Shown: positions 660 through 59,600, counted from the stretch's first letter. The stretch is 64,000 nt of DNA from Lytechinus pictus (GCF_037042905.1 NC_087251.1:47680001-47744000), one strand, 5' to 3'. The notes: generated by a model not told the origin, from the letters alone. Numbers and translations are program-made.

Positions 660-1018
660 CACACAATATTAATAATTGCCAGAAATCAAAGTAATAAAGT
701 ATAGGTCCTCTTGTCTTGTGTAAAGTAAAGATTCAAATTACATGTACAGTTTGACATAAAAAAAAATATGGGATTAGAGTTTAATCTAAAGGTTTTATTT
801 TCACTGGTTGTCATATATCTTCTTCTTTTTTTTCAGAGGGGGGGGGGGGCATACTGTAGGTAATCATCCACAGATATTTCAACAAACAGATTCCATCCAA
901 AAGCAACTCAATCAACAATATCAAATGTTTGATTTATGCTTCATAGGAAATCATTCAATCCACGAAATTTTCAATATCGTAAGGAGGTTATTAATGTAAC
1001 AAAGTAGTCTTTAATTAC

Positions 1019-22000: not shown

Positions 22001-25000
22001 GGTTAATATGAAAAGCGCAGAACATACCATGCAGGTGACATTTTCTAGCAGAAAAAATGAAAACCCCAATATTCCCATTTCTATTTTTTTCCCTGTCATG
22101 GATTTTTTTTTTTTTTTGGGGGGGGGGGGGGGGGACTGTAATTAGTTACATGTAGGACTCATTGCAAAACGTGTTTTGTGCTTTATACACCATTGGGCAT
22201 ATATATGTACTTGTATGAGCTTTGCAATACAAGTGATATGTTAATAGCTTGCCCTCCTTGTTTAATAATAATAATAGAGAGTATTTCTAAAGCGCCAAAT
22301 CCACATTGATTATGTGCTCAAGGCGCTGCGAAAAGGAAATAATAGAAAAATTACACGGTACAGGAAGGGACAAAGATAAAAAGAATGACAGTCATGACAA
22401 TGAAAGGAAACTACTGGAAGGCAATTTTAAACAAATGGGTTTTTAGAGTAATTTTGAAATTATCGATATTTGAAATACTACGAATGGAATATGGCAACTG
22501 ATTCCATAAGGATGGCCCAGCATGTGCAAATGTCCGATCCCCCCATGATTTCTTGGATTTAGGAACTGTAAGCAATTTAGAATCAGAAGATCTTAAACGT
22601 CGAGGAGGATTGTATGGCATCAACAAATTAACATTATATTCTGGGGCAGATCCATGGATACAGTGAAAAACTAACAATAATAACTTAAAGGAGAATGAAA
22701 CCCTTAAAACCAGCTGAATCTATATCAAAGAGAAAAATCATAGAAACATATTGTTGAAAGTTTGAGGAAGATTGAATGAATAATAAGAAAGTTATGAGCA
22801 TTCGAATATTGAGATCACTAGTGCCATGTAGATCCTCCCAACGGCAATGCGACCAAGATCTGTGATATCACACACGTACAACTCCCTCATTACTTTAGTA
22901 CTTATTTCACTTATATTCTCACTTTTATAGAGTCTATCACAAGGTGAGGTGTTCTCTTTATGATATGACAAGTACAGAGGTTTCACAACATTATATCATT
23001 GATGAATCGTTTGTCATATGATTAGAATGAGCAAAAAGAGATGTTTTGGGGTATATTTTCAGTGTCCAAATGGGAGAGTTGTACGTGTGTGACATCACAG
23101 ATCTTGGTCGCATTGCCAATGGGAGGATCTCCATAGCATTAGTGATCTCGACATTCAAATGCTCATAACTCTTTTATTGCTAGTCCTATTTTACTCAAAG
23201 TTTTGTTGATCTTATTCTTTGATTTTTCTGCTTTCACAAAAGCTAACTTGCTCCAAGAGTTTCATTCTCCTTTAAATACAATACGGTACTCGATGGGTAA
23301 CCAATGCAGTGAGGACAGAACTGGAGTTATGTGAGTAGAGCGCCTGATAAGGGTAACAATACGGGCTGCAGAATTCTGTAATTTTTGTAAGCGTGAGAGT
23401 TGGGATTGTGGAAGGTGAAACAAAAGAGAATTGCCAAAATCAAGTCGAGATGATATCAGAGCATGTATAATCTTTTCTGTAGCGGATCAGGTTAAATACT
23501 TGCGAATGATGCCTAAATTACGCAATTGATATCTGACTGATTTACACACGGCAGTGATCTGGGCAGACATAGACATTGTTGAATCAAACAAAACTCCAAG
23601 ATTCCTGCATGATTTGGATGGCATAACATTAACATTACCAATTCTCAAAGAGGGAAGTCTTATCTTATCTAGTGCAGCTTTAGAGCCAATAAACAGCAGC
23701 TCAGATTTATCTTCATTTAATTTTAAAGAATTGCAGCTCATCCACCTATTGATATCGTGAACACAAGCCTCAAGATTTTTTACAGCATCAATGGCATTGG
23801 TCTGGTTAGGTAGGAATGATGTGTACAGTTGAATATCGTCTGCATAACAATGATATTTAAAACAATGGCTTCTTAAAATCTGTTTAAGGCCACCCAAGTA
23901 CAATGAAAAAAGGGTCGGGCCTCCGACTGATCCCTGCGGTACACCATGAACTAATTCAGCAGGATCACTCTTTGAATTGTTAATACAGACTACTTGAAAC
24001 CTTTCAGATAAGTATGACTTAAACCACTCTAGGGGTGCGTTTATCCGCCACTTTTTCACCCTAGAATCATGATCTGAATCACGATTCAAATCATGATTCT
24101 GCAGAATCACGATTGCGTTTAGGGTGCGTTTATCCGCCACTTTTTCACCCTAGAATCATGATCTGAATCATGATTCAAATCACGATTCTGCAGAATCACG
24201 ATTGCGTTTAGTCGAAATTGAATATAATCATGATTAGAATCACAAACATGAACTACGAAAAAAGGGGCGTTTGGAAAGACGTTTCTACAGAATCACGTAT
24301 GAAAATGTTCGAATAAACGATATCGTGATTTGAATCATGATTATATGACCTCACTGTGTCGGGCTACTTTCGGTTTGACTCTTGCCAAGCTCAAGGCTCT
24401 CTATATGCTCATTGTATGTACATGGTTACTCTGCATGCATTTCTTGTCATGTTCAAGTTCTGTGTTGGTCATCGCATCGTCCACTACTTTTCATTTTTTG
24501 GTCATGTCTTCAACTTCAAGTTCTAGTGAATGAATTAACTGGACAGACAATGATCTCAGTTGTTGTTGAGTATAGAGTGTTAATATTAAATTGGATCTAC
24601 GCTGAAATTCACTTCCGAACACCATTTTGGATAAACTAACAAGATGAATAGAAGCATATGGACCCTATAGAAGTAAACAAAATTAGGTATAGACTGAATT
24701 CTGGAAGCAAAAGATTTTTCGAGAGCCGAAACACGTGCGAAAAACTTCCTCTGTCAAACTGCGCACTAGTGATGCGCACTGGATTGGCCCGAATCTGAGG
24801 AGAAACAGCATTGTAATGAAGGTCGTCTAAACGCTGATTCTGTGACATCGTGATTCATGTTTGTGTTTTGAATCATGATTCAAATCATGATTCTGGCTTG
24901 AGGTCGCATAAACGCAGCCTTAGTCGAAATTGAATATAATCATGATTAGAATCACAAACATGAAACACGAAAAAAGGGGCGTTTGGAAAGACGTTTCTGC

Positions 25001-40161: not shown

Positions 40162-43100
40162 ATGTCTACAAACTCTGCCGTGAGCTCAGCATTCGAATCA
40201 TTGTGGACACCTATAAAATCCGAAGATGAGCAGAGCAAGGGTCTTCGAGGATATGTTGGAACTCTAGAAGAAGCGCTGGTAGTTTTGAAGGCGTATGAGC
40301 TTGCATCATCCTTGAAAATCAACAAAAATTTTGAAACTTCTTCTGGACTTGGTGACAATTGTTTAAGAAGTATGTAACTGAACAGAAGTAGATTTTGCTA
40401 TTCCATTTGAAAAAAAAAGTTTTAAATTAATGTAAACCATATATTTAATTGAACCCCCACTGAATTTTAATTGGTTGAAAACTAATCCATTTCTTGAAAA
40501 ATATTGATGGCATACCGTATTGCTCTGGCCTAACAAAGGTAGTGTAACAGGCTAAAAAGACAAATGCTTTAGAAATTTTAAATTTTGATGGCTTTGTGGT
40601 GGACAAAATTTATCATTCAAGATGCAAAAAATAGGGTTTGACTGTAGAAGCATGGCACCGTGGGTAAACTAAGTGTGCAATGATGAATACATCAATTCAG
40701 TAATGAAATGGTTGATGTTTCTTTTATCTATTTTTATTTCATTAATTTCAGTTGAAAATTGCAATATATATCATATATATATTTTCATCACACTTTAATG
40801 AAAAAAAAATGTATATTCAACAGATCAATTGAAATGATGTTGCCATGCAAACAAAACAAAGAATTACAAAGAAAATATAATTAAACATACAAAATATTAC
40901 ATTTTTTGGTAAAATATAGCACGCTCACACAAGGGTATTATCTTTTGATTTTAATGTAAGCATTAGAGATTTATCTGAGAGCTATGTTATTGGTGCTGTG
41001 TGATTCTGATACATATCAAAGAGGTTTCAAAACTGAATTATATATTGCACATTTTTTCATTGCTATTTTGTTTGATTCTGTGATTTTAGTACTGGCAAGT
41101 ATGTGGTCTCAACATGAAAACCTATTTAAAATCCACTGTAATTTTTGGTCAGTTTTTCAATTTCTGCCAAGTATTTTTAAAATTAATTTTTACTCAGACT
41201 GGTGTTTGACGGCTGTAGGCTCATGCAGGCATTCACTGCCTTGATTTTGGGATTGCGATGCGAGCATCTTATATCCCTAGTATTACCTAACACTTTTCAT
41301 AAATATTCAATCATATCAAACGCAATATTCTCATGAAATTTAAATAAACTGGTTTCTCTATCTAGTCAATACACTTAATTTTTTTTTTATTTTTTTATAA
41401 TGACAGATGCATCCAAGAAAGTCTGCTTTCTAGACCGTCAGGATGGTACGATTCCTGCGGATGGTGTCCCTTTCATGACTGTTCGTCATATCTCTTATGC
41501 ATGCGAGTATGGTCGGGACAAAAATGCTAAAAGTAGAAGGTCTGCGAAAGAGGATAGGGAAAAAATGCTCAGGGTGAGTAAATCGTTCTCATATTTTTTA
41601 TTTGTTGTTTTCAATACAGACAAGGAACATTATATAATATGAAAGGAAAAATAAATTGAGCCATTAAGTGATATTTTTATTCTGTATTTCTATGATATAT
41701 GTTATTTCTAGCATGTAAATGCATGTATACTTCATATATAAATGTACACATACGGTACTTATAACATTTGTAATATACTCCCGATTATTAAAGACGTACA
41801 ACTTCAAAATTATGGGTCCAATAAATGATTTATTGGACAAACAGAGCTTAAGTTTCTGTAAATTGGTCATGTATTGGATTAAAAACAATAAATGATAGTC
41901 GTGAAAGTCAATGAGGCATTTGTATTATTGCAAATGATGATTTACCTTTCTTAAAGGGGTACTCCAGGCTAAAAATAATATGATTTGAACAAATTTAAAG
42001 AAAAATCAGAAAAACAAGAGACTGATAATTTGACCAAAATCAGACAAGGATTGATGAAGTTATGACATATTAAAAATTTGCATTATTTCAATGAAACAAT
42101 TCATTGCTGCAACTTAGTTTATTAGGGAGACATATGAAATACCTATGATTAAATGTAATAACATAAGGAAAAGGAAAGTGGGGTCATAACATCAGCCCAC
42201 CTAATAAATATTCATGACATTGTACATACATGTATAGGCCTAATTGCTTTCACAAAGTTTTGCTAAGCTTTAAAATTCATCAACTCTTATTCGTAATCAG
42301 GGGTGCATTTCATAAAAGTATAAATTTCATATTTATATTTTTAATAATTTTACAGTTAAAAGCTACTAAAATCCTTCAATCTGATTGGCTGATAGTAAAT
42401 TTTTTATAGAAACTGTTTACTTGTTATACATAGGGATACTTAGGGAGTATACTGAACGAAGTCATTATGACTCTGTATTCAGTTCCAAATTCTTTCCCCT
42501 CTTTAGGTTGGCTGGATCATGTCCTGGTGGGTCAGCGTTGAACTTGCTATTATACCAAGTCTTTATAAAAGGGACCCAGATTTTGATTAAATTTTCAGCA
42601 TTTTACTCGGTGAATTTTACTCTATTTAGACATTGTTTTCAAGCCTTTCAGTAGGGGGATTCCTTGAAAATTTAGTGAATCAATTATCAATATCATTGGA
42701 AAAAATGTATGTTTTTAATTGTGTAATGATTCATGATCACATTGATAATCCATTTAAAGTCACAAATATTTTATACTTTTGTTATATCTTATCAGGGTGA
42801 GTCACCATCACAGAGACGCTACAAGAGAATCAAACGCCCAGAATCCAAAAAACTGGGATGTAAGGCTGTTGTACATGTGAAGCAGACAGCAAAGTTCATT
42901 GACTATACGGTAATTTTGCTTGCCAATGTACTTTTTCCATCTACAGTTACTATTGGAAGAGACCAGGGGGCCGTTTCATAAAGCTGTTCGTAAGTTAAGA
43001 GCGACTTTAAGAACGACTGGTGATCCTTTCTCATGGCTTAACCATCGCCAATGAATATACCTTTTACCACAAGAAAGGATCACCAGTCGTTCTTAAAGTC

Positions 43101-44961
43101 GCTCTTAAATTACGAACAGCTTTATGAAACACCCACCAGGGGCCTGTGTTACAAAGAGTTGTGATTGATCCGATCGACCACAACTATGGAAAGCCGGCAA
43201 CACCAATATCTAAAATGCATGTTTCTTCAAAATGTTTTCTAGATGTGATGTATACTCATATATTCATTGATGTCTTGACATTTCAGCATGCTCCTCATTG
43301 CTTACAAAGGACATTTTGCAAATTTCCTGTATCATGTAAAGTTATGACAATGATGGATTTCACATAACTGAGGTTGATTTCTAGATCAATCTCAACTCTT
43401 TGTAAGACGGGACACAGGGCTTTTTTTTTTAAGGGTTGTGATTGATTCGCTTCTGAAAAGTTTCTTTTATATAGGAAATGTACACAATATGGCCTTAGAA
43501 ACAAAAAGGAACACATTGAATTGTCAAGAAAATGATGCGTATATGAGTATACATCATATTTAGAGAACACTTTGATCAGAGATGCACTCTAGAAGTGCCT
43601 GTTGCTGACTTTATATAGATAATATTCCTTAGATCAGTAATTAATCTTTGAAAGACTGTGGCCAGAAAAATTATGTTTTTGGGTTATACCTCATTCACAT
43701 TTGCTCTACGGCGGCCGTATGGTGAGTCAAAAACAGCTGTTTTAACCTTTTTTGTAATAGCTACAAACAGGTGGTTTGAATAAAATGGCTGTTTTTTTTA
43801 CTCACGGTTCGGCCGCCGTAGAGCAGATGTGACTGAGGTATTATCCATCAGTCCCATATCATTGTTCTTGTGATGGTTTTGAAAATCTTTTTGGCTTGTG
43901 ATCCCCATTACAATTTTTCAATGTCATGAGGTGAATTCTTGTCAGACTATATATATATATATGCAGACACCTTGTGGGCGTTTCATAAAGATTTACATGT
44001 GACTGGTGACTTCATGGACATCTGGATTGCCTTACATTGATAATCATAGGCATTTATATAGCGCCACGTATCTTGAAATAATCTATTCTAAGGTGCATTG
44101 TTATTGTTATTACCCCGGCTTTAGCTCAAGCTGCCTTCCCACGCTTTTGTGCATTCAAGGAATCAATCCTGCCACGTACCCATTCACCTCACCTGGGTTG
44201 AGTGCAGTGCAATTGGGTAAATTTCTTGCTGAAGGAAAACACACCATGGCTGGGATTCAAACCCATGCCCCTCTGATTTGTGACCACTAGACCACAATGC
44301 CCCAATTGACCCAAATCAAATATTACATCACAGCAAATAATACTTTCTGATTATCCAATTGTAGACATATGTACCACACAAAAATGAAATCAAATTATTT
44401 GGGATAAGATATAATTTGATAATAAAATGATTATTTCTGTGTTTAAAATATTATTTCTATCATTGTTTGGTGAGTTTTTCTTCCTGACTCACTTGGTGTG
44501 ATAAAGCAGCTTGGAATGGATTGTACCTACATTTATTTGCATGCCATGTACTGAAATCTGCTTTTCATTCGTATGTACACTGTACATGATAAATTCTCTG
44601 TTGTGTTTTGTTTCTTATTTCAATGAATTGGCTGAAATATTATATATTTGCATGCCATACTGAAATCTATTTTTCATTTGTATGTACATGATTAATGCTC
44701 TATTGTGTTTTTGTTTCTTATTTCAATTAATGTAAATTCTATATATTTTTTAAATTAGTGTATAAAATTAGAGCTCTTTAAAAAAAGATTATTTATATAT
44801 ATATTTTTGCATAGGATATTAAGAATGGCTATCAGAAGAAGAAGGCAAGTGAGGCGATCAGGGGTGCACTACTGAAAGGGGAAAACCCAGCCATCGAGAC
44901 AAGATTTTACATCAGGCTTCCAAGCAGAGAGGAGCATCTAGAAACACATGATATAGGCGAG
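40162..44961 (+). CDS. N-terminal part: calcium-responsive transcription factor (CaRF/ALS2CR8)-like domain, exons 1-4
   Basis: Motifs GTIPADGVPFMTVRHISYACEYGRD, RPESKKLGCKAVVHVKQTAKFIDY and TRFYIRLPSREEHLETH give the C...C...H...H pattern of the CaRF domain (WRKY/GCM1/MULE-type zinc-binding DBD). The splice sites are strong. Confidence 0.8.
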
Positions 44962-47900
44962 GTATGCAAACACTTGGTAGAAGTTTCATTCTGTTGGTTT
45001 TTGTCTCACCCGCATAGCAGAGTGAGACTATAGGCGCCGCTTTTCCGGCAGGGTCAACACCAAATCTTAACCGAAGGTTAAGTTTTTGAAATGACAGCAT
45101 AACTTAGAAAATATATTGACCTAGTTCATGAAACTTGGTCATAAGGGTAATCAAATATTACTGAACATCCTGCCTGAGTTTCAAGTTACATGACCAAGTT
45201 GGGGATATCTGTTGAATTACCATCTTAACTTAAGTTTATGGATCTGATTCATGAAACTTAGACATAAAAGTAATCAAGTATCACTGAATATCCTGTGGGA
45301 GTTTCAGGTCACATGATCAAGGTCAAAGGTCATTTAAGGTCAATGAACTTTGGCCAAGTTGGGGTATTTGTTGAATTACCATCATAACTTTGAAAGTTTA
45401 TTGGTCTAGTTCATAAAACTTGTACAGTATCACTGAGCATCCTGTTCGAGTTCAGGTAACATGACCAAGGTCAAAGGTCAATGAACTATGGCCATGTTGG
45501 GATTATCTGTTGAATTATCATCATAACTTTGAATGTTTATGGATTTGATTCATGAAACTTGGACATGAGAGTAATCAAGTGTCACTGAATATCTCATGCG
45601 AATTTCAGGTCACATGACCAAAGTCAAAGGCTATTTAAGGTGAATGAACTTTGGCCATTTTGGAGGTAATTATTAGATTGCTGTCATAAGTTTCAAAGTT
45701 TATATATATAGTTTATAAAATGTGGATATTAAGGGTAATCAAGTATCACTGACAAGTCTTAGGTCGCATGATCAAGGTCAAATGTCATTTATTGTCAATG
45801 AACTTAGTATTGTATCATTATATGAATTGTGTTCTTTGTGAATAATTATATTATAGTAGACTTCAAAGTCAGCACTGCTGCTATATTAAATCGCGAGCAG
45901 GTGAGACTGCCAGAGGTGCTCCACTTGTTTACTGACAAGATTAACAGTGGCGTAGCTACGGGGGGGCCTGGGGGGGCACGTGCCCCCCCTGAGATTTGGT
46001 GTGCCCCCCCAGGTGCCCCCCCTGAAAAAAAATGGCAGAGCAAAAAAAAAAAGGAGAAAGAAGAAAAGAAAAAAGGAAAAGAAGAAGAAAGACAGAAGAA
46101 AAAAAAAGAAGAGGAAAATAAGAGGAGGAAGACGAGTGAATGATATAATGTGAGGGGAAGACTTGCAAAAAAAAAATCCTTCATGTTACTTTATAAAATT
46201 TTTGCTTGCGCTTCGCGCCAGAATTGCCTGTTCGATGAGATTCATATCTTGCTCAATAGGCTGATATGGAGCAAGTTTTGAAGTCAATATACAAAACATA
46301 TTTTAGCTCGGACATCGAGCTTTCATAATTTTTTTTCATTTACAAATTTAAGTGCTCTGTAAAATGTCCATTTTATGGTCTACATATCAGCATTTTAAGC
46401 TCACGCTGCGTGGTCACATTGTTTGATTTGCCAAGTTCATATTGTCTACGTGTCCCGGCTACGTGTATTCCATAATGTTCCATTAAACAAATGTATTCAG
46501 AATGCCCAGATTCTAGGTCTAAATCTAAAACATGCGCGATAGCCTGCATGTTCTTTATTTAAAATGTACTTAAATTATCCAGTTTCACATCAAAATATCA
46601 ATAATTGTCTGCTCACGCTTCACGATCGCATTATTAATGATACCCAATTAACTATATCCTATTTATGATTTACAAAATATGAATATAGTGTCCCGCTTTT
46701 AGGTCTAAAATCTCAATTTTCTTCCTCTCGCGCTTCGCGCTCGCATCAATTGTTTAGTTACATAACTATCCCATTTATTAATACAAAAAGTGCTTAGAAT
46801 GACCATTTTTTTAGGTCGGAATGTCAAAAAAATTTGCTCGCGCTTTGCGCTCGCATTATTGAAATATATACCATCTTCCTTAACAGGTCCCTTTTCGATA
46901 ATGCTAGAACAGTTAATAAAAATTTCTGCTAACGCTTGGCGTTCGCAGTAACCATCTAGTTACATACGAATATTGTTCAGGATCACACATTGATTGATTG
47001 ATTTTATTTGTCAGGTAACTATGAACAAGTACAAGGAAATATAAACAGAAGTGTATACCTTGACAGGATTACCCATGAAAGCCGAGATGGCTTATTTCCA
47101 ATGGGGTCCTTAAACATAACATTGCCCAGAATATCAAATTTTCAGGACAAAATACATGAAAGTAAAAAAAAATCGCTCGCGCTTCGCGCTCGCACTTTTT
47201 ATAAGGCTTATGAGATTATTTCATGTTTATGTTGTTTTATAAGAATAAAACTGAGAAGGTACTGATCGGGTAAAATATAGGTGAAGATAATTTCGGGCCC
47301 CGTCCCATATTGACGAAAGTCGGATCCGCCCTTGTGACACATACACACACCGAAAAAAATGGTGCCCCCCCTGAAAAAGCAAGGACCCCCCAGTGCCCCC
47401 CCAGGAAAAAAATCCTAGCTACGCCACTGAAGATTAAATGTTGTGAAATGTCCCTCTTGTTTTTTTTTTAGGTATGAGTGTGTTCAGTTTATCCTTACAA
47501 AGATCTAAAAATTAAAAAAAATTGAAATTGAAGGTCTGTTGTAAATCATCATGGATTCCTTTTATTTTTGTCTCACCTGCATAGCAGAGTGAGACTATAG
47601 GCGCCGCTTTTCCGACGGCGGCGGCGTCAACACCAAATCTTAACCTGAGGTTAAGTTTTTTAAATGACAGCATAACTTAGAAAGTATATGGTCCTAGTTC
47701 ATGAAACTTGGCCATAAGGTTAATCAAGTATTACTGAACATCCTGCCTGAGTTTCATGTCACATGACCATGGTCAATGGTCATTTAGGGTCAATGAACTT
47801 AGACCATGTTGGGGGAATCAACATCAAAATCTTAACCTAAGGTTAAGTTTTTGAAATGTCATCATAACTTAGAAAATATATGGACCTAGTTCATAAAACT

Positions 47901-50900
47901 TATACATAAGGTTAATCAAGTATCACTGAACATCCTGCATGAGTTTCACGTCACATGACCAAGGTCAAAGGTCATTTCGGGTCAATGAACTTTGGCCGAA
48001 TTGGGTGTATCTGTTGAATCACCATCATAACTTTAAAAGTTTATGGATCTGATTCATGAAACTTGGACATAATAGTAATCAAGTATTACTGAACATCCTG
48101 TGCAAGTTTCAGGTCACATGATTAAGGTCAAAGGTCATTTAGGGTCAATGAACTTTGGTCAAATTGGGGTATTTGTTGAATTACCGCCATAACTTTGAAA
48201 GTGTGTTGGTCTAGTTCATGAAACTTGGACATAAGAGTAATCAAGTATCACTGAACATTCTGTGCGCATTTTAGGTCACATGACCAAGGTCAAAGGTCAA
48301 TGAACTTTGGCCATAATGGGGGTATCTGTTTAATTACCATTATAACTTGGAAAGTTGTTGGATCTTACTCTTGAAACTTGGACATAAGAGTAATCAAGTA
48401 TCACTGAACATCCTGTGTGAGTTTCAGGTCACATGATCAAGGTCAAAGGTCATGTAAGGTCAATGAACTTTGGCCACGTTGGGGGTATTTGTTGAATTAC
48501 CATCATATCTCTATAAGTGTATTGGTCTAGTTTATAAAACGTGGAAATAAGAGTAACCAAGTATCACTGAACATCTTGTGCGAGTTATAGTAGTTTTCAA
48601 AATCAGCACTGCTGCTATATTGAATCGCGTGATGCAGGTGAGACGGTCAGAGGCATTCATCTTGTTTCATGAATGATGACACTAGGTGAATTGAGTTTGG
48701 TGCCCAAAGCTTCATATGAAAAAAAATGAAAGAAAGCTTTGCTGTGTACAAATGAGAATGACAGGATTGTAATTAGATGCATGCCTTCTATTTCTATTTT
48801 ACATTCAAATTAATTGCCCATGTCAAATATTTTCAACCAACATTTGAGTCACATATATCAGCTTTTTTATCATCCATATAGAATTTTAAGTCAGTCATTC
48901 AAGGAGACCTGAAACTGTTGTGTCATAGATGGTGTATAATATAGGCCCTGTTTTTTATCATTATTATTTACACAGTATACTGTTCCAAATAGGAGTCTAT
49001 TGGAGGGTGCATTGCTAAACCGGGCTGTCAGGTACGGCTACAGTTGTGTGTGTCTAAAAATAATCTCTACTCTCTTACTATCTCTGTACCTCCCCTTCTC
49101 TCTCTTTCTTCTTCTTTCTCTCCCCCCTCTTCCTTATTTTTTTCTCTTGTCTTCTACATAACAAATGACCGGTCAATCAAAATAAAATATCAGCTGTTTT
49201 TAAAAATCCTTTATATAAAACCACTTTTCATGCCTGGAATTGTCTAAATACATCAAGATGACATCTTTGTAGGTTTTGATATCTAGTCACTAAATTTATG
49301 AGATAGGGACTCAAAAGCCCCTTTTTAAAGCAAAAATAAAAATGTCAGCATGAGTGGGCTCTAGGTATTTATAATAAAAGAATTTTACAGAGAATTAACT
49401 GATGGGATAACCTTCAACAGCCACCACCACAGGTTTGTAAGATTAGAATGTTAGATGGTAAATGAGGATAATTAACATTATTGACCTTTTATAAAAGCTT
49501 TTACAACCCACCTTAAAAGATAGGTTTTAATCATCTGAATATGTAAAGATCACTGGAGTTAAAAGTAGGCCCCCTATTTAAGTAATTCAGATTGAGCAAT
49601 AAATGTTACATTGGCTGGCCACATCCCAACCTGTTGGAAGTTATACATGTACATGCATTTACTGGTAACTTTGCCAAGGTCGAATCTATTGGGACAGCAA
49701 AAATATATTTTAGAACAGGTATATTTTACAGGGGGATACTTTTGAAAGTGGAAGTGGGGCTGAACATGAATAAAATCACAACTTGAAGGTCATTTTAACA
49801 TCAAATTGAATTGAATTGAATTTGAAACTTTTTAAACCCATGCAGACGGGAAATCGGCCTCCACTATTGCATTACAAAAATATAAAGAAAATTAAGTTTA
49901 CAAATGAGATGACAAATATAAATCAACATTCCAGCTGAAGTAACCCAATTTAAACATAGGGTCTAGTATAGCAGTAATTATAACATTTGAATAAGGAAAA
50001 AAGAATCCATGTATTTTTTTATATCCGAAATCTATTTGAATTTTAGAATAGGTTGATTTATGCAAGTTTTTAAATTGTTTACGGTATGATTCTTTACAGC
50101 AGTAAACCTTTGAGGAATCCATTTACCAATAAGGGTAGTGGAATGACCTGTCATGCCCTCAGACTAAGACCCGGGGAGGAGCTGAGGGGGAAACTCTTTG
50201 AATACGTCCAAAACCATGGCCTCAAGGCGGCATTCATCTTGACGTGTGTCGGCAGCCTCCAGACGGTGTCTCTAAGAATGGCTGATTCAGTGACGGTGAG
50301 GCATACCGGTTAATTCCCACTTGGGGGGGGGGGGGGGGTCACAAAGGTTCAAGTGTGACTTGAGTTGCACCTTAGTCATACCTAACTATTTGCCAGACAC
50401 CCCCCCCAGGTCATCACCACATTGATCAAGTCATGCAAAGAGGACACACACTACTTTGTAATAATCATTCAGGTTACATATCATTTGTAATATCATCAGC
50501 ACTCATGCATGACTCCAAGTCACACTTCTTTGTGAAACACCCCCCAGGTCTAATAATAGACGGTCCAATTCACAGATTGGCTAACACTATCGTGGCAAAA
50601 CCCACTTGGTCCACACAATCCATTTGGTCTAATTTCTGTGTGATCCAACCATCACTTGGTCAATACCCATGTGTTCTAAAAGTAGATGGTCTCACAAGCA
50701 GATTTGCTAACACCGTCATGGCAAAACCCACTTGGCCTACTGTCTTGGTCAAATTATTGTTTGACCCAACCATCCCTTAGGATGTGTTGTAAGAAAATAT
50801 TGGTGATCAATTGCAAATATTGTGTTGTAATTTTACAATTGATAGATCAATTTTAACTGTAGCAAATCAGATTACACTTCTTGTTTCAAGAAGCATGTTA

Positions 50901-52615
50901 AGAATCAGTAGTAAATTCACAATTAGTTTCAAGACTTGATTGATTTAGGAACAGAAAATCGACTTGCAATTGATTGCAAGTTTCTTGCAATGCCCCACCT
51001 GTCTGTTATTCAATATTCTAATGTCCAGATGCTCTCATTTCCACTTCATCTACTGACTACATAATATCTTGCATTTTGTCAAGTGACAATTTGGTTCTGA
51101 AAAAGTTCATTTAATCATCTAGACTAAGAAATTAGAATTAACAGAATGGCGAAAGGAGAGAATTTCATACCAGAAACATATCTTAATGTTACTGAATTTT
51201 GAAAATTTTGGTGGAAACTGCCCCTCCCCCCCATTTCCAATAGCATCAGAGGGCTATTGACAAATGCATGTTATCTTTCTACATTCAGATGATGCATATT
51301 GAGAAGAACCTTGAGATCGTCTCCCTGGTTGGAACGCTGTCTGGAGGACATGGGCACCTACATATGAGCTTATCAGATGAACTTGGCAATGTAAGTTTAG
51401 GGCCCTGTCTTACGAAGAGTTGTGATTGATCCGATCAATCGCAGCTATGGAAAGCCAGCAACGTCAACATCTATGATTCATGTTTGTTCAAAATATTTTC
51501 TAGCTATGATGTATATTCATGCATTCATTGTTTTCTTGAGAATTCCCTGTGCATCTCTTTGTTTACAAAGGACATTGGGCAAAATTCCTGTAGAAAATAT
51601 TATGACACTGATGGATTTCCATAATTATGATTGATTGGATCATTGTAACTCTTTGCAAGACGGGGCCCTGGGGCCATTTCTATAACTTGTTGGAATAAAA
51701 AAATTCAAATATAAGTTAAATGCTATTGAAATCTTTCTATCCGATTGGGCGATTTTGAATTTGTTATAACAATTGCGCATTTACAAGTCTTGTGAAACAG
51801 AACCAAGAGGACCGTTTCAAATGAATTCGAATTCAATTTGGTTTTATTCAACAATACTCATCAAGCAAGCATTTAGTGCTTTATATGATATAGTTGTTAT
51901 AAGCTGCTGAAAATCTTTTCATGTGATTGGCTCACAGCTTATACTGGACACACAGCCTTGTGGGTTGAATTAATTGAAGATTCATGGTATGAATAATAAA
52001 TATCAGTAACTATTCATTTCATGAACATGAAATGCTCCCCAGAGCTTGGGTTGGAAGTGCAAATATTTGTCAAAATTTTACAACTTAAATTCTAAAGTTG
52101 ACTAGACTTATGTTCTCTGATTTATCCTACAAGATTTGTATGTGTGGGGGGGGGGGGGGGATTCCTGAATATTTAAATGGATTGGCTCAGTAATATGTGG
52201 GAGGTCTTGATTGAAAGTGTTTGTAATTGTAATTTCCTTGGAACATGGGAGTGTAGGATGTTGCCTTCTTGAGGATGGTGAGATATTGATATCATGAACA
52301 AATGAAAGCAAGGACAACTTACTATTTTAATTACAGTCTTGAGAAAGAAGGTTTGGAGGAAGTCTTGATGACATCACCTCACAATGTTTTGCTAGAATTC
52401 TATGAAATAGTTGCGTTAAAATGTCAAGCGTTAAAGCAAGTATATAATTCTGTAATTTTCTTGTCTTTGAAAAGGTTGTTGGCGGTCATCTTCTCGGCGA
52501 CGCTGTGGTGTTCTCAACGGCAGAAGTGGTGATTGGAGAGATCCCTCACCTGTCGTTTTCCAGAGAGCCAGATCCAGAAACTGGTTACGATGAGCTTGTT
52601 ATAGAAAAGAGATAG
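40162..52615 (+). CDS. Predicted CaRF/ALS2CR8-like DNA-binding domain fused to PPC (DUF296) domain, 376 aa, 8 coding exons
   Basis: Exons 40162-40369, 41407-41573, 42796-42909, 44815-44961, 48976-49031, 50100-50295, 51289-51390, 52475-52615. All introns are GT-AG with matching phases (1,0,0,0,2,0,0); 1131 nt open frame ending in TAG at 52613-52615. Confidence 0.7.
42966..43420. mobile_element. Two adjacent short Harbinger-type MITEs; the second has another copy near 51400-51668
   Basis: GGGGCCGTTTCATAAAGCTGTTCGTAA...TTACGAACAGCTTTATGAAAC palindrome, followed by GGCCTGTGTTACAAAGAGTT...AACTCTTTGTAAGACGGG. Confidence 0.65.
44998..45929 (+). mobile_element. Helentron-associated (HINE/DINE/pearl-like) element with internal ~155-bp tandem repeats
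   Basis: T-run start, subterminal inverted repeat GTCTCACC...GGTGAGAC, 5' inverted copy GTGAGAC and end CTTGTT; core repeats TTCATGAAACTTGG...GGTCACATGACCAAGGTCAAAGGTCA. Confidence 0.7.
45945..47429. mobile_element. hAT-type non-autonomous element, 8-bp TSD
   Basis: AAGATTAA|CAGTGGCGTAGCTA...TAGCTACGCCACTG|AAGATTAA. Confidence 0.88.
47565..48667 (+). mobile_element. Second Helentron-associated repeat-array element
   Basis: Same termini and core monomer as 44998-45929, with about 6 monomers. Confidence 0.7.
50100..52615 (+). CDS. C-terminal part: PPC/DUF296 domain (animal homologues are often auto-annotated 'GlmU-like'), exons 6-8
   Basis: HALRLRPGEEL...AAFILTCVGSL...LRMAD / LEIVSLVGTLSGGHGHLHMSLSDELGN / VVGGHLLG...VFSTAEVVIGE...FSREPDPETGYDEL: all the hallmark PPC/DUF296 motifs, spread over three phase-0-joined exons. 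Confidence 0.92.
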
Positions 52616-56648: not shown

Positions 56649-59600
56649 TCATACACGAGGAGCACCGAAAGCATCTGGCATTCTCTCGATTGTATATCTA
56701 GGAAAGAAAAATACAAAAACAAAATGCAGATGGAGTCACAGAAAATATTCACCCAACTTACATGTATGTTGTGGCCTGGAGGGGAAGGGTTTATATGTAC
56801 ACATGCACGTAAGTCATAAACATATCACTTGCGCAAGTGAACATCCTTGAATATGTGTTGTAATGTTGAATTTTTATGTTGTTAATAAGTGACATTTCCA
56901 TCTCGGAAATGTTCCAGCAAAAATATTTTGTATAAGCTAAAACATCTGCTTAAGGTAAACACAAAAATCCATCATTTTTTTCTGCACTAACAGCAAAGAA
57001 AAAAAATCTGTCATTTTTTCTGCATTATCAGCATTATACTATGCTTTGTTTTCCTTTGGTTTTCTATAAAAGAAAACAAACACCACGAAACAAGATCACA
57101 CTGGTTATATATCATAACTGACTTAAACTATTTAATATTGTTTTGAAGCTGTAACAGTGATGAAATATTGGCGATTGAGGAAAGAAAGATATGTTCTCAC
57201 CTATGCTGAGATAGATACATGATGGGCACTCCTGGAATCTTCCTTATTCTCCTCTTCAAATCTCGGTCACAAGTAGCCACGATATAACATTTATGCTATA
57301 TAAAGATAAATAAAAAAAAAATGGTTTTTAAAAACAAAATTTAAATACTATGTTGACTCCAACACCAAGTTAATTTTAATAAAAAGAAAAAATAAAACCA
57401 TGATAGTCGGTCGGTATGCAAATGAGGGAACTGATGACATCACTCACTCATTATTTCTTTTGTATTTTATTGCATGAAATATTTTTATTTTCTCGTCATT
57501 GTCATGTGAAATGAAGTTTTATTCCTGCCTGAACACGTGGAATTCCAATATTTTAACATTTTGTGCTTCAGGCAAGGAGGTCCTAATCATCAAATTCGTA
57601 AAAATTGAAATATTGTATAATTCAAACGATAAAAAACAAAAGAAATAGTGAGTGAGTGACATCATCGACTCTCTCATTTGGATGTAACTGGCTCGTTCAT
57701 ATAACTATTTTGTTAAAAATAAGCGAAACTTTGAAATATCATAACTTTCTTATTTTACATCCGATTTTGATGAAATTTTCAGCATTGTGCTTGTCTGATT
57801 TTTCTCTATTGATTCAAATCAACATTTTTCTGAGGTGGACTTGACCTTTAATAATATCTACAGTCACTATTTTCTTTTTCCTTTCATTATTTGAAGTTTC
57901 AAATATTTCCATTTAAATTGCTCTGAATTCAGCCACCATGAAAATATTTCATTCATCATTTTTGTAACTTATCCCGATTCTTTTAATGGAGATAGTACGC
58001 AGTAGACATATTTTCTGTTCATTTCATACACACTAGAATGAAAGGATGGCACCTTGTGTTAATTTAAATGTGTATAAATCAAAGCTATTGATTTCAGATA
58101 TCAGTGAACACAAAACAAAAACTGGGGGCATTTCATGAAACTATTTATGAATGACTTTACTCATGACTGGTGACCCTTTCTTGTGCTAAATGATAGATCC
58201 ATATGTAACTGAAGCAGCACCTAAGAACATGTTCCAGTCATTTGTAGATTCATGTGTTACTTTACGGACAGCTTTATGAAATACCACCCCAGGCAAAAAA
58301 TAAAAAATATCTGTTTAAACACCTACTGCTTAAGTATGCATGCAACATTGTAGTGGATTTTCCAGGGATTTTTTTTTTTTCAATTTTCCTATGCTCTTTT
58401 CATCAATTTGGGGGCAAAATGGGCCCAAGCTCCCTTGTATCTTCTCACCACCCTGGTGAGAAATGGGCAGAACTATAGTTTGTCATGTAATTTACTTTTA
58501 ACCAATAACAGGGGTGTGAGTGATCACAAATAAAAAGATCTGAAAAAAGCTGAAGAGTGTTGAAAAGGTCTGAAATAGAAAGAGCTCCCATACTTTTTGT
58601 ACAGAGGAAAGCCAAAAATAAGCTGAAATTAAGCTGAAAATCAAAACAAAAAAATCTGAAATCAGATAAAAATCTGAACTCTCAAACCCCTGCGATCATA
58701 AGACAGCAGGATTTTTTCGACAAAACATATTTGGCAACATTCAAGCGAACAACAACCAACCTGTGTAACTCTTTGCACAATACAGTCATCAGCATACGTC
58801 CCAGTGTGCATGCATGGGAGCCGTTCTATCCTTGGATCTCTAACTGTTCTTAGAGCTACATTATACTTCTTCCCAAGCTTTTCAATCTCGGCCATCACGC
58901 AGTCTGTAATGCATGGTATGCCTGGAGAAAGTGAAAGAAACAAATAATGAAAATAATTAAACCCAGATTTTTAGGATTTCTTGCAACATCTATGGCTAAA
59001 ATATAATATTAATTCCTTCAAAAAATAAAAATGTTTGTGAGCCAAGATGGGGATGCTATAAAGCCAGGGTAATGTTAGCCCTTGTACACTCTGCAAAGAA
59101 AAGTGCAAATTAATGATTAATAACATAAGGTTTACCGTTCACCATGTCTTATGTTCTCTGTACCACCATGCAACAGTGAAAAAAAAGTGAGGGCTAAGGG
59201 CAATTAGTCCCTGAAACATTTGAAATAGCCACCATAAATGAAAAGACCCACAGTCAAAACAATATTTCTGCCAATAAATCATAGTGCATTAAAATATCTG
59301 AACACAATAGATGGACTTCTAAGCAGCCCTCGAGAGAAGAATTTTAATTTTCATACTGCCATGCAAACCTTTAAAGTTTATTATTATCAATATTATAAAT
59401 ACCAAATCATTGTTGAGAAGTATCGATTATCTTCAATTTTTTAATGGTTATATAAGCAGCAATTTGGGTAAAAATTGTCTATATGCAGCATTTTGGGTAA
59501 AAATTGTCTATATGAGTTACAACACACTGAACTCAAGCATGTTTAATACATGATTGAACTTATATAGCACTTAATACATGATGTTTCTAAGCACCTCTGA

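What the first reader, a model, noticed from the sequence alone, without database searches (positions are those of the whole stretch)
40162..52615. In-frame fusion of a CaRF-type DNA-binding domain to a PPC/DUF296 domain: a possible animal counterpart of plant AHL proteins
Seen: four CaRF-like exons end in phase 0 with no stop (..THDIGE|gtatgc, 44961). A small 56-nt exon that the ORF track does not show (48976-49031, cacag|YTVPNRSLLEGALLNRAVS|gtacgg) starts in phase 0 and ends in phase 2, exactly the phase needed by the PPC exon acceptor (ttacag|C, 50100). The result is one 376-aa ORF. Established: PPC/DUF296 is a trimerising domain that stands alone in prokaryotes, and in land plants it is fused to AT-hooks (AHL chromatin regulators); CaRF/ALS2CR8 is a sequence-specific DNA-binding domain. 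Inference: an independently evolved DBD+PPC architecture that could display three DBDs per trimer and bridge DNA sites. I do not recall this architecture being described.
Basis: partly seen in the sequence, partly recalled or inferred. Interest (0 to 1): 0.9.

Follow-up and report, generated by a model that had tools for sequence, protein, structure and literature searches.

The report
Sea urchin transposase-type DNA-binding domain fused to PPC
In the sea urchin genus Lytechinus, a DNA-binding module of a kind found on Mutator-like transposases has been spliced in frame onto the animal's only PPC (DUF296) gene, giving a protein built like plant AHL factors but made from different parts, though I could not confirm from RNA reads that it is expressed as one transcript.

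Summary
All eight exons have GT-AG borders and matching phases, and they give a 376-codon ORF. This ORF is letter for letter RefSeq XP_063959019.1, LOC129264298 isoform X1 of Lytechinus pictus. Isoform X2 differs only by a tandem acceptor at 50100/50103. L. variegatus has the same fusion.

S. purpuratus, Diadema and a crinoid have a lone PPC protein of 133-161 aa. The fusion is therefore lineage-restricted and is already catalogued as an uncharacterised protein. My literature searches found no description of it.

Domain evidence:
- **N-terminal half:** it matches only positions 15-141 of 235 in the ALS2CR8 profile. In this genome that domain type sits upstream of MULE/ZSWIM-type transposase cores at 3 loci.
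- **PPC half:** it folds like bacterial PPC proteins (TM 0.93) and models as a trimer (score 0.96, best control 0.22).

Sea cucumbers carry a separate THAP+PPC fusion.

Weak points:
- The S. purpuratus relative of the N-terminal module is itself a chimeric gene model.
- The bridging exon is one of 136 frame-compatible candidates.

Verdict: a probable real fusion gene by capture of a transposase-type DNA-binding domain. This is a new variant of a known kind.

The parts
40162..40369 (+). Exon 1: start codon and N-terminal leader (residues 1-69), conserved with family members (WTP..LRGYV..EEA motif)
   Evidence: ATG at 40162 and donor gaa|GTATGT. Aligns with P0007, P0019 and the L008 paralogue. 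No Pfam hit.
41407..41573 (+). Exon 2: ALS2CR8 profile positions 15-49. Holds DGVPF and the first conserved Cys (C102, YACEYGRDKN).
   Evidence: Pfam 29.4 bits. Cys present in 9 of 9 family rows that cover the column.
42796..42909 (+). Exon 3: ALS2CR8 positions 56-87. Basic NLS-like run (RRYKRIKRPESKK) and the second conserved Cys (C146, LGCKAVV). Skipped in L. variegatus isoform X2.
   Evidence: Pfam ALS2CR8 25.3 bits and a weak FAR1 hit at E 0.019. Cys in 8 of 8 rows. P0003 lacks these 38 residues.
44815..44961 (+). Exon 4: ALS2CR8 positions 94-141. Holds ETRFYIRLP and the His pair H204/H208. It ends in phase 0 with no stop. Homology to the S. purpuratus and Patiria relatives stops here.
   Evidence: Reading into the intron adds 23 codons before a stop.
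48976..49031 (+). Exon 5: 56-nt bridging exon (YTVPNRSLLEGALLNRAVS), phase 0 in and phase 2 out. It has no counterpart in relatives outside Lytechinus.
   Evidence: Present in P0165, P0001, P0002 and P0003, with 17 of 18 residues identical between the two species. The exon is single-copy in the genome. Skipping it gives a stop 2 codons into exon 6.
50100..50295 (+). Exon 6: 13 linker codons, then the start of the PPC domain at Met245 (MTCHALRLRPGEEL). Tandem acceptor at 50100/50103 gives isoforms X1 and X2.
   Evidence: Pfam PCC 38.6 bits. P0165 and P0001 differ by one Ser at this junction. S. purpuratus PPC homology begins at 50137.
50086..50088 (+). In-frame ATG just upstream of the exon 6 acceptor. 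Together with Met245, it would allow a lone PPC protein of about 132-150 aa from a transcript that starts in intron 5.
   Evidence: Open frame from 50074 with Met at codon 5. No transcript evidence either way.
51289..51390 (+). Exon 7: PPC core (EIVSLVGTLSGGHGHLHMSL), with the nearly invariant H319 and H321
   Evidence: Pfam PCC 23.4 bits. Conservation from A2. Lies in the modelled trimer interface.
52475..52615 (+). Exon 8: PPC C-terminal strands and the stop codon (52613-52615). Candidate poly(A) signals near 52676, 52796 and 52904.
   Evidence: Pfam PCC 19.5 bits..
44962..48975 (.). Intron 4 (4 kb), filled with repeats: about 160-nt tandem units at 47627-48586, related copies at 45046-45729, and a purine-rich low-complexity run.

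Best explanation
This is a lineage-restricted chimeric gene, LOC129264298 of Lytechinus pictus, with an orthologue in L. variegatus.

Structure of the fusion:
- Four exons encode the N-terminal Cys-Cys-His-His module of an ALS2CR8/CaRF-like family. In this genome that domain also sits in front of MULE/ZSWIM-type transposase cores.
- These exons are spliced, through a private 56-nt bridging exon, onto the three coding exons of the ancestral single-copy echinoderm PPC/DUF296 gene.

Proposed mechanism: the PPC half forms a homotrimer, as solved prokaryotic PPC proteins do. Each subunit then carries one flexibly linked DNA-binding module with a basic NLS-like run. The product would be a trivalent nuclear DNA-binding protein. 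It is analogous in layout to plant AT-hook+PPC (AHL) factors and, in origin, to the host-transposase fusion genes of vertebrates.

Shown here: the exon chain and ORF; membership of both domains; the PPC fold; the single PPC locus in the genome; the fused state in two Lytechinus species and the unfused state in other echinoderms.

Inferred: that the chain is one abundant mRNA; that it is translated from the first ATG; that the module binds DNA; that the trimer forms in vivo.
For: 1. **ORF.** It is intact with canonical splice sites and is identical to RefSeq isoform X1. Isoform X2 differs only by the tandem acceptor at the critical exon 5/6 junction. From my knowledge of the NCBI pipeline, not from any call, alternative isoforms are built from transcript or RNA-seq alignments.

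2. **Second species.** L. variegatus models P0003 and P0002 carry the same exon 4-5-6 chain.

3. **Domains.** ALS2CR8 scores 81 bits and PCC 95.7 bits. The PPC half has pLDDT 93-98, Foldseek TM 0.93-0.94 and rmsd 0.8-1.3 A to 2hx0/2nmu/2p6y at 43-44% identity, and phmmer E 3e-28.

4. **Trimer model.** Score 0.96 against a best of 0.22 among 3 controls. That mark was reached by 20 of 30 proteins solved as pairs of one chain and by 1 of 23 solved as single chains. The runs agree in at least 94% of contacts and partner pLDDT is at least 92. On eukaryotes the mark was reached by 17 of 29, but by only 1 of the 7 with no older solved relative. PPC trimers are solved, so the pass may be from memory.

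5. **Ancestral state is unfused.** S. purpuratus PPC is 161 aa, Diadema 138 aa and Anneissia 133/134 aa. The S. purpuratus relative of the module is on record on a contig of a different length from its PPC gene (45.80 vs 45.23 Mb).

6. **Only PPC locus.** This is the only PPC locus in the 812-Mb assembly: 2 matches from 3 candidates, both in the window.

7. **Constraint on the module since the two species split.** Changes hit 5 of 52 family-conserved positions against 18 of 72 other positions (one-sided Fisher p = 0.024). The candidate zinc ligands C102, C146, H204 and H208 are kept.

8. **Module type.** 3 ALS2CR8 loci in this genome have a ZSWIM1-3 RNaseH-like core 1-4 kb downstream on the same strand. 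As a lead only, the nearest Atlas structural cluster carries ALS2CR8 in 100% of members, ZSWIM1-3_RNaseH-like in 88% and MULE in 68%.

9. **A parallel case.** Holothurian proteins carry THAP (68.3 bits) plus PCC (100 bits) as an unbroken ORF on contigs of 1.3-2.0 kb.
Against: - **No RNA reads were examined.** The join rests on automatic gene models.
- **The module family is prone to chimeric models.** S. purpuratus P0007 joins the same kind of 4-exon module to exons that in L. pictus lie on another contig (C4), and it ends in intron read-through.
- **The bridging exon is not distinctive.** It is one of 136 frame-compatible candidates and scores no better than they do.
- **The module half evolves faster than the PPC half.** Between the two Lytechinus species, 29 of 212 residues differ in the module half against 10 of 132 in the PPC half. 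Exon 4 is only 38/49 identical. I have no neutral rate to compare this with.
- **Only part of the ALS2CR8 profile is present.** Positions 15-141 of 235 match, and I found no C-terminal half in the window.
- **The module fold is not tied to a solved DNA-binding domain.** The module model reached pLDDT 76-89 only in its core, and it matched no solved structure (best Z 3.5; no Foldseek hit at E <= 0.001).
- **A lone PPC protein remains possible.** It could still be made from Met245 or from the ATG at 50086.
Confidence: 0.6

Rival explanations
1. This is a conjoined or read-through locus. A truncated CaRF-like gene with no terminal exon of its own sits upstream of the PPC gene. The fused mRNA exists, but it is a minor by-product. 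The working PPC protein is the lone form of about 132-150 aa, made from a start site in intron 5 or from Met245.
For: - The S. purpuratus relative P0007 is exactly such a chimera with an unrelated downstream gene, and it ends in a retained intron.
- An in-frame ATG at 50086 and Met245 allow a lone PPC protein.
- Met245 aligns with the region where the lone S. purpuratus protein begins.
- This is the only PPC locus in the genome, so any ancestral stand-alone function has to be supplied from here.
- The module half diverges faster than the PPC half.
Against: - Every Lytechinus model that my searches returned is fused: 5 proteins across 2 species, and none is a lone PPC.
- The fusion keeps the whole PPC domain in frame to its natural stop in both species. 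The S. purpuratus chimera instead breaks off.
- Changes between the two species avoid family-conserved positions of the module (p = 0.024).
Confidence: 0.27
2. The N-terminal module is a decaying relic. Exons 1-5 now serve only as a long 5' leader of the PPC gene, and the open frame across them is a leftover that has not yet been broken.
For: - There is rapid change in exon 4: 11 of 49 residues differ between congeners.
- Only half of the ALS2CR8 profile is present.
- P0165 carries the family majority residue at only 36 of 52 conserved positions.
Against: - The frame is open over 244 codons in both species with no stop or frameshift.
- All 11 differences in exon 4 fall in its first 25 residues, while the strand and the His pair are untouched.
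- The 4 candidate metal ligands are conserved.
- The half-length domain is shared with S. purpuratus P0007 and Patiria P0019 (profile positions 7-146 and 7-149), so it is a feature of this subfamily and not decay.
Confidence: 0.1
3. The join is a chance reading-frame coincidence or a first-reader artefact, and no such exon chain exists.
For: There are 136 frame-compatible candidate bridging segments in the intron.
Against: The exact chain is an independent RefSeq model in two species, with isoforms that differ at the junction itself.
Confidence: 0.02

Closest known systems
Plant AHL proteins (AT-hook Motif Nuclear Localized: AT-hook + PPC/DUF296)
   Same: A DNA-binding element lies N-terminal to a PPC domain. 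The PPC is proposed to trimerise and so present several DNA-binding elements (PMC4209074, passages read). The core EI[LV]SL.G stretch of the PPC is present here as LEIVSLVGTL. The plant motif is recalled from memory, not taken from a call.
   Different: - There is no AT-hook: the protein has no RGR core (sequence).
- The DNA-binding part is a folded module of about 140 residues, not a short minor-groove motif.
- This PPC is 43-44% identical to gamma-proteobacterial PPC proteins.
- It is restricted to one animal genus and arose independently.
Host-transposase fusion genes of tetrapods (e.g. KRABINER, SETMAR; Cosby et al. preprint 10.1101/2020.05.07.082677, abstract and passages read)
   Same: - A DNA-binding domain of transposase type and a host domain are encoded by separate exons and joined by splicing.
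- The parental host gene is unfused in outgroups.
- The fusion is young and lineage-restricted.
   Different: - The host partner is PPC, not KRAB or SCAN.
- The module is multi-exonic and has no flanking terminal inverted repeats, so I cannot show a direct transposon insertion at this site.
- The preprint's main text does not contain the words MULE, Mutator, CARF, THAP or invertebrate (0 occurrences each).
- That survey covered tetrapods.
Vertebrate CaRF (calcium-response factor, ALS2CR8)
   Same: Same Pfam family (PF15299, 81 bits). CaRF binds DNA directly and sequence-specifically through a conserved domain, and it has a natural short isoform that ends just after the exons encoding that domain (PMC2877716, abstract and passages read).
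   Different: - Only profile positions 15-141 of 235 are present.
- There is no intermediate domain or activation domain.
- It is one of at least ten ALS2CR8-like loci in the urchin, whereas that paper reports a single gene per species.
- It is not the CaRF orthologue.
Lone PPC proteins (bacterial COG1661 such as 2hx0, 2nmu, 2p6y; animal 'bifunctional protein GlmU-like')
   Same: The C-terminal 132 residues are an ordinary member: TM 0.93-0.94, with nearly invariant H319, H321, H335 and E347.
   Different: Here the domain carries a 244-residue N-terminal extension with a second domain.
Holothurian THAP+PPC proteins (P0008 cluster; Holothuria leucospilota KAJ8046019.1 is the only named member)
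   Same: An echinoderm PPC domain (58% identical to this one over the PPC stretch) preceded by a DNA-binding domain of transposase type.
   Different: - It has THAP instead of ALS2CR8 and a basic C-terminal tail, and it belongs to a different echinoderm class, so it is a separate fusion event.
- Seven of the eight cluster members are unnamed assemblies. I inferred that they are sea cucumber sequences only from their at least 90% identity to the named one.

Membership tests
PPC / PCC / DUF296 (PF03479) | Profile match above the curated cut-off over the whole domain | tested here: met
   95.7 bits against a cut-off of 25. Residues 247/248-353/354 match profile positions 2-116 of 117.
PPC / PCC / DUF296 (PF03479) | Fold of solved PPC proteins | tested here: met
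   AF2 pLDDT 93-98 for residues 243-376. Foldseek TM by target 0.93-0.94 and rmsd 0.8-1.3 A to 2hx0, 2nmu and 2p6y.
PPC / PCC / DUF296 (PF03479) | Homotrimer | tested here: met
   Prediction only. Score 0.96 against a best of 0.22 among 3 controls. That mark was reached by 20 of 30 proteins solved as pairs of one chain and by 1 of 23 solved as single chains. Contacts agree in at least 94%, and pLDDT is at least 92. The job held three copies and my own alignment, which differs from the calibration. PPC trimers are solved, so the pass may be from memory.
ALS2CR8 / CaRF family (PF15299) | Profile match above the curated cut-off | tested here: met
   81 bits against a cut-off of 28.9.
ALS2CR8 / CaRF family (PF15299) | Whole domain present (235 profile positions) | tested here: not met
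   Only positions 15-141 match. tblastn with the C-terminal halves of three paralogues found nothing in the window better than E 0.4. The same half-length domain occurs in P0007 and P0019.
ALS2CR8 / CaRF family (PF15299) | Direct sequence-specific DNA binding, as shown for mammalian CaRF | not testable with these tools
   The property is known for CaRF (PMC2877716). I could not map which profile positions hold the experimentally defined region. The module matched no solved DNA-binding fold, which is inconclusive.
Plant AHL family | AT-hook (R-G-R core) N-terminal to the PPC domain | tested here: not met
   P0165 contains no R-G-R (sequence). The N-terminal part is an ALS2CR8 module instead.
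Plant AHL family | PPC domain C-terminal to a DNA-binding element in one polypeptide | tested here: met
   Domain order is ALS2CR8 81-212, then PCC 248-354. This holds at the level of the gene model only.
Host-transposase fusion genes | The DNA-binding domain is of a type carried by transposases | tested here: met
   Loci at C7:25.44 Mb, C18:18.46 Mb and C12:25.01 Mb have ALS2CR8 exons followed within 1-4 kb on the same strand by a ZSWIM1-3 RNaseH-like core. The Atlas cluster is a lead only.
Host-transposase fusion genes | The fusion arose from a transposon insertion at this locus | tested here: inconclusive
   No inverted repeats flank the module. The module has four exons, and other paralogues share its intron positions. 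A domesticated paralogue moved by rearrangement is equally possible.
Host-transposase fusion genes | The parental host gene is unfused in outgroups | tested here: met
   Lone PPC proteins in S. purpuratus, Diadema antillarum and Anneissia japonica.
Host-transposase fusion genes | A fusion transcript is observed | not testable with these tools
Only RefSeq models speak for it.

The most novel reading that the evidence does not exclude
Echinoderms, and perhaps other eukaryotes, have repeatedly built AHL-like trivalent DNA-binding factors by capturing unrelated DNA-binding domains onto the PPC domain:
- a MULE-type ALS2CR8 module in Lytechinus;
- THAP in sea cucumbers;
- an HMG box in one unnamed eukaryotic sequence.

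On this reading, PPC is a general trimerising scaffold for DNA-binding domains that plants and animals found by convergence. Because its conserved His/Glu cluster lies at the subunit interface, it may also sense a ligand or a metal. The Lytechinus protein would then be a young, functional transcription or chromatin factor.
Probability: 0.35. Interest if true: 0.75.

Novelty: new variant of a known kind. Interest (0 to 1): 0.55.

Why it matters
The PPC domain is treated in the literature as a plant and prokaryote domain. In that account its only link to DNA binding is the land-plant AHL family (PMC4209074).

This locus shows three things:
- Animals keep a single-copy PPC gene.
- In at least one urchin genus it has been joined to a transposase-type DNA-binding module.
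- A second, independent DBD+PPC join (THAP) exists in sea cucumbers.

If the fusion protein is real, it is a natural experiment on two open questions. The first is what PPC contributes to a DNA-binding protein, such as trimerisation, partner binding or possibly ligand sensing. The second is how new transcription factors arise by exon capture outside vertebrates.

A paper I read calls L. pictus genetically tractable (PMC13419447). Tagging, knock-out and binding-site mapping should therefore be feasible there.

Tried and rejected
**RNA evidence**
- The look-up of sequencing runs listed 7 runs and no RNA holder. Three are RNA raw-read runs of 2026 with the same species label, and four are small contig runs of uncertain kind.
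No reads were laid.
- A search for short database proteins spanning residues 175-290 found 10 proteins among 35 candidates. None was from Lytechinus, so there are no assembled transcript fragments for or against the join.

**Missing half of the domain**
- I looked for the C-terminal half of ALS2CR8, or for the S. purpuratus C-terminus, in the window. I found none.
- My first attempt, using all ORFs of the paralogue loci, was swamped by repeat matches and I discarded it.

**Fold of the module**
- The first AF2 model gave pLDDT 30-60 for the module.
- The second, made with a module-centred alignment, gave 76-89 in the core.
- Neither VIA-align over 48,161 chains (best Z 3.5, nothing at Z 5 or above) nor Foldseek (0 matches at E <= 0.001) tied the module to a solved fold. 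WRKY, GCM and FAR1-type folds are not excluded.
- A weak FAR1 profile hit appeared only for exon 3 scanned alone (E 0.019) and not for the full proteins.
- The mixed alignment A4 misaligned the fragments and I did not use it.

**Other checks**
- Terminal inverted repeats around the module: none. There are only small MITE-like pairs inside intron 3.
- Repeat origin of exon 5: none, since it is single-copy. A short repeat lies just upstream of exon 6.
- Neutral divergence between L. pictus and L. variegatus: not found in PMC13419447, and the L. pictus genome paper is not held. I therefore make no dN/dS statement.
- Earlier findings of this scan: none by place, words or sequence.

**Literature searches**
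- 'PPC domain'+'THAP': 1 irrelevant paper.
- 'DUF296'+'metazoa': 5 papers. I read two, and both only list the domain in tables.
- 'ALS2CR8'+'DNA-binding domain': 0 papers.
- The four LOC identifiers: 0 papers.
- Supplementary files were not searched.

Full report
**What is in the sequence.**
- The eight exons are 40162-40369, 41407-41573, 42796-42909, 44815-44961, 48976-49031, 50100-50295, 51289-51390 and 52475-52615.
- Every internal border is AG|exon|GT, and the phases fit.
- The chain is 1131 nt, which is 376 codons plus a stop.
- Scanned exon by exon against Pfam, 3 of the 4 N-terminal exons hit ALS2CR8 (PF15299) and 3 of 3 C-terminal exons hit PCC (PF03479).

**Whether the join is more than chance.** From the sequence alone it is not.
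- The interval 44962-50099 holds 136 open AG..GT segments of 20-300 nt with the phase needed to bridge exon 4 to exon 6. Exon 5 does not stand out from them on a crude splice score.
- The independent support comes from the databases. A search with exon 6 alone returned a 375-aa protein, 100% identical, that carries both Pfam domains: LOC129264298 isoform X2 of Lytechinus pictus. It also returned two fused isoforms of LOC121418179 of L. variegatus. A search with exon 2 returned the same genes.
- X1 and X2 differ by one Ser at the exon 5/6 junction. This corresponds to the tandem acceptor cag|CAG|T at 50100/50103. From my knowledge of the NCBI pipeline, not from a call, such isoform pairs are built from transcript alignments. 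This is indirect evidence that reads cross this junction.
- The window is G000:C7:47680001-47744000 of an 812-Mb assembly.

**Direct RNA evidence could not be obtained.** The run search listed three RNA raw-read runs of the species. A search for short database proteins across the junction found none from Lytechinus. The expression of the join therefore remains inferred.

**The two halves.**
- *Full protein.* ALS2CR8 scores 81 bits (cut-off 28.9) over residues 81-212, but this covers only profile positions 15-141 of 235. PCC scores 95.7 bits over residues 247-353 of isoform X2 (248-354 in X1) and is complete.
- *PPC half.* It is an ordinary, well-conserved PPC domain.
  - AF2 pLDDT is 93-98.
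  - Foldseek TM is 0.93-0.94 to the Salmonella and Vibrio proteins 2hx0, 2nmu and 2p6y at 43-44% identity, and phmmer gives E 3e-28.
  - Three copies of residues 240-376 model as a trimer. The score is 0.96 against a best of 0.22 among 3 controls.
  - That mark was reached by 20 of 30 proteins solved as pairs of one chain and by 1 of 23 solved as single chains. Contacts agree in at least 94% and pLDDT is at least 92.
  - Prokaryotic PPC trimers are solved (PMC4209074), so this pass may reflect memory of them. It shows likeness, not binding.
  - The nearly invariant H319, H321, H335 and E347 lie in the modelled interface.
- *Module half.* It keeps a Cys...Cys...His-x3-His set: C102 in 9 of 9 family rows, C146 in 8 of 8, and H204 and H208. 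It also has a basic NLS-like run in exon 3.
  - Its best model reaches pLDDT 76-89 only in the core.
  - It matches no solved structure: best Z 3.5 among 48,161 chains, and no Foldseek match at E <= 0.001.
  - Its status as a DNA-binding domain therefore rests on family membership. CaRF binds DNA directly (PMC2877716), but I could not map the experimentally defined region onto the half that is present here.

**What kind of module it is.**
- The genome holds at least ten ALS2CR8-like loci: 21 exon matches from 36 candidates.
- At three of them (C7:25.44 Mb, C18:18.46 Mb, C12:25.01 Mb) a ZSWIM1-3 RNaseH-like core, the catalytic-type domain of MULE-related transposase derivatives, follows within 1-4 kb on the same strand.
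- As a lead, the nearest structural cluster in the ESM Atlas carries ALS2CR8 in 100% of members, ZSWIM1-3_RNaseH-like in 88% and MULE in 68%. FAR1 clusters appear at low TM.
- Exon 3 alone gives a weak FAR1 hit (E 0.019).
- The module is therefore better described as the N-terminal domain of Mutator-like transposase derivatives than as the CaRF domain in particular.
- No inverted repeats flank it. Its four-exon structure is shared with paralogues. A recent transposon insertion at this site is therefore not shown.

**Evolution.**
- The PPC gene is single-copy here.
- It is a lone protein in S. purpuratus (161 aa), Diadema antillarum (138 aa) and the crinoid Anneissia japonica (133/134 aa).
- Homology of the window to S. 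purpuratus PPC begins at 50137, just before Met245.
- Homology to the nearest module relatives ends exactly at the end of exon 4. These are S. purpuratus LOC100889690 (P0007) and Patiria miniata LOC119737634 (P0019). Exon 5 has no counterpart in either.
- The join is therefore specific to the Lytechinus lineage among the species I could see.
- One caution. P0007 is itself a chimera. Its residues 253-363 match exons that in L. pictus lie on another contig (C4:26196861-26199321, 67-89% identity). Its last 19 residues read into an intron that carries a stop in L. pictus. Automatic models of this module family can thus run into whatever gene lies downstream.
- Against reading the Lytechinus case the same way:
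  - The whole PPC domain is kept in frame to its natural stop in both species.
  - All five Lytechinus proteins returned are fused.
  - Substitutions between the two species avoid family-conserved positions of the module: 5 of 52 against 18 of 72 (one-sided Fisher p = 0.024).
- The module half does change faster than the PPC half: 29 of 212 residues against 10 of 132. I have no neutral rate with which to judge this.

**A wider pattern.** The profile-free search of 1.84 billion representatives gave 1911 hits at E <= 0.001. I scanned 58 of the 150 listed against Pfam, choosing those longer than a lone domain plus the three module relatives.
- Two more PPC proteins carry a DNA-binding partner.
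  - P0008 has THAP (68.3 bits) plus PCC (100 bits). Its eight-member cluster includes Holothuria leucospilota KAJ8046019.1 and seven unnamed assemblies of 1.3-2.0 kb, each with an unbroken ORF of 337-415 aa.
  - P0101 has PCC plus an HMG box and is unnamed.
- Other partners seen are a protein kinase, Cupin_5, GGACT, NADAR, hexapeptide transferase and MazG.
- PPC is thus a promiscuous fusion partner. Joins between a DNA-binding domain and PPC have arisen at least twice in echinoderms with different, transposase-type domains.

**Comparison with what is known.**
- The layout copies plant AHLs (a DNA-binding element followed by PPC), but the protein fails the defining AT-hook test, so it is not an AHL.
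- The origin resembles the host-transposase fusions of tetrapods: separate exons joined by splicing, with the parental gene unfused in outgroups (preprint 10.1101/2020.05.07.082677, abstract and passages). That survey covers tetrapods, and its main text contains none of the words MULE, Mutator, CARF or THAP.
- The AHL literature I read describes PPC only in prokaryotes, algae and land plants (PMC4209074).
- My searches found no paper on animal fusions of PPC with a DNA-binding domain. Supplementary files were not searched.

**Verdict.**
- The finding is real at the level of sequence and gene model.
- It is already catalogued as an uncharacterised protein and is restricted to one genus.
- It is most likely a young fusion gene (confidence 0.6). 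A read-through reading is at 0.27, a decaying-relic reading at 0.1 and an artefact reading at 0.02.
- It is a new variant of a known kind.
- Interest is moderate. It would rise if junction reads, a 42-kDa protein and DNA binding were shown.

Noticed in passing
P0008 cluster (P0156-P0162); no window coordinates: Sea cucumber proteins join a THAP domain (residues 49-130) to a PPC domain (180-284) and a basic C-terminal tail. The only named member, Holothuria leucospilota KAJ8046019.1 (285 aa), starts inside the THAP domain, so that gene model probably misses its first exon or exons.
   Followed up: partly
P0101 (249 aa, unnamed, contig of 6129 nt): A PPC domain (11-118) is followed by an HMG box (174-243). 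This is a third kind of PPC fusion with a DNA-binding domain, from an unidentified eukaryote.
   Followed up: no
S. purpuratus XP_030849947.1 (P0007); L. pictus G000:C4:26196861-26199321: The S. purpuratus model LOC100889690 is chimeric. A CaRF-like module (residues 1-237) is joined to the first exons of another gene (motif FLNHGAFGA...RQPLRF), and the model ends in intron read-through. In L. pictus those exons lie on a different contig with no CaRF-like module found in the 10.9 kb fetched upstream of them (tblastn).
   Followed up: partly
G000:C7:25441978-25445374, C18:18464658-18468038, C12:25014179-25018823: Three L. pictus loci combine ALS2CR8 exons with a downstream ZSWIM1-3 RNaseH-like (MULE-related) core on the same strand. 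They are probably domesticated or decaying Mutator-like transposase genes.
   Followed up: partly
G000:C19:866310-869813 (L008, ORF 934-2217 minus strand): An intronless 427-aa ORF carries ALS2CR8 profile positions 16-215 and a long helical tail. It is a paralogue without introns.
   Followed up: no
G000:C11:8863342-8866630: Another paralogue has the same exon 1 / exon 2 layout and is closer to Patiria P0019 (57% in exon 2). No exons 3-4 were found within 30 kb.
   Followed up: partly
window 47627-48586 and 45046-45729: Intron 4 holds a tandem array of units of about 160 nt (4.5 copies, 79% matches) and related dispersed copies. There is also a purine-rich low-complexity run near the middle of the intron.
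   Followed up: no
window 42963-43140, 43184-43618, 43680-43847; 51399-51592: Intron 3 holds small MITE-like inverted-repeat pairs. One element (43138-43331) has an 81% identical copy in the intron between exons 7 and 8.
   Followed up: no
window 58662-58967 (-), 16255-16599 (-), 23487-24146 (-): Neighbouring features: an Fcf1-domain exon on the minus strand downstream (convergent), a weak filamin-repeat exon upstream on the minus strand, and a reverse-transcriptase fragment. The other 28 of the 31 long ORFs scanned had no Pfam hit.
   Followed up: no
P0165 residues 164-188 (window 44815-44889): All 11 differences between L. pictus and L. variegatus in exon 4 fall in its first 25 residues, which are a predicted helix. 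The following strand and His pair are identical. This could be a fast-evolving recognition or surface helix.
   Followed up: partly
PPC domain, residues 305-347 of P0165: The nearly invariant His/Glu cluster (E305, H319, H321, H335, E347) lies in the modelled subunit interface. One solved relative (2h6l) is titled a metal-containing protein, and the next structural neighbours are acetolactate decarboxylases. This hints that PPC may bind a metal or a ligand.
   Followed up: no
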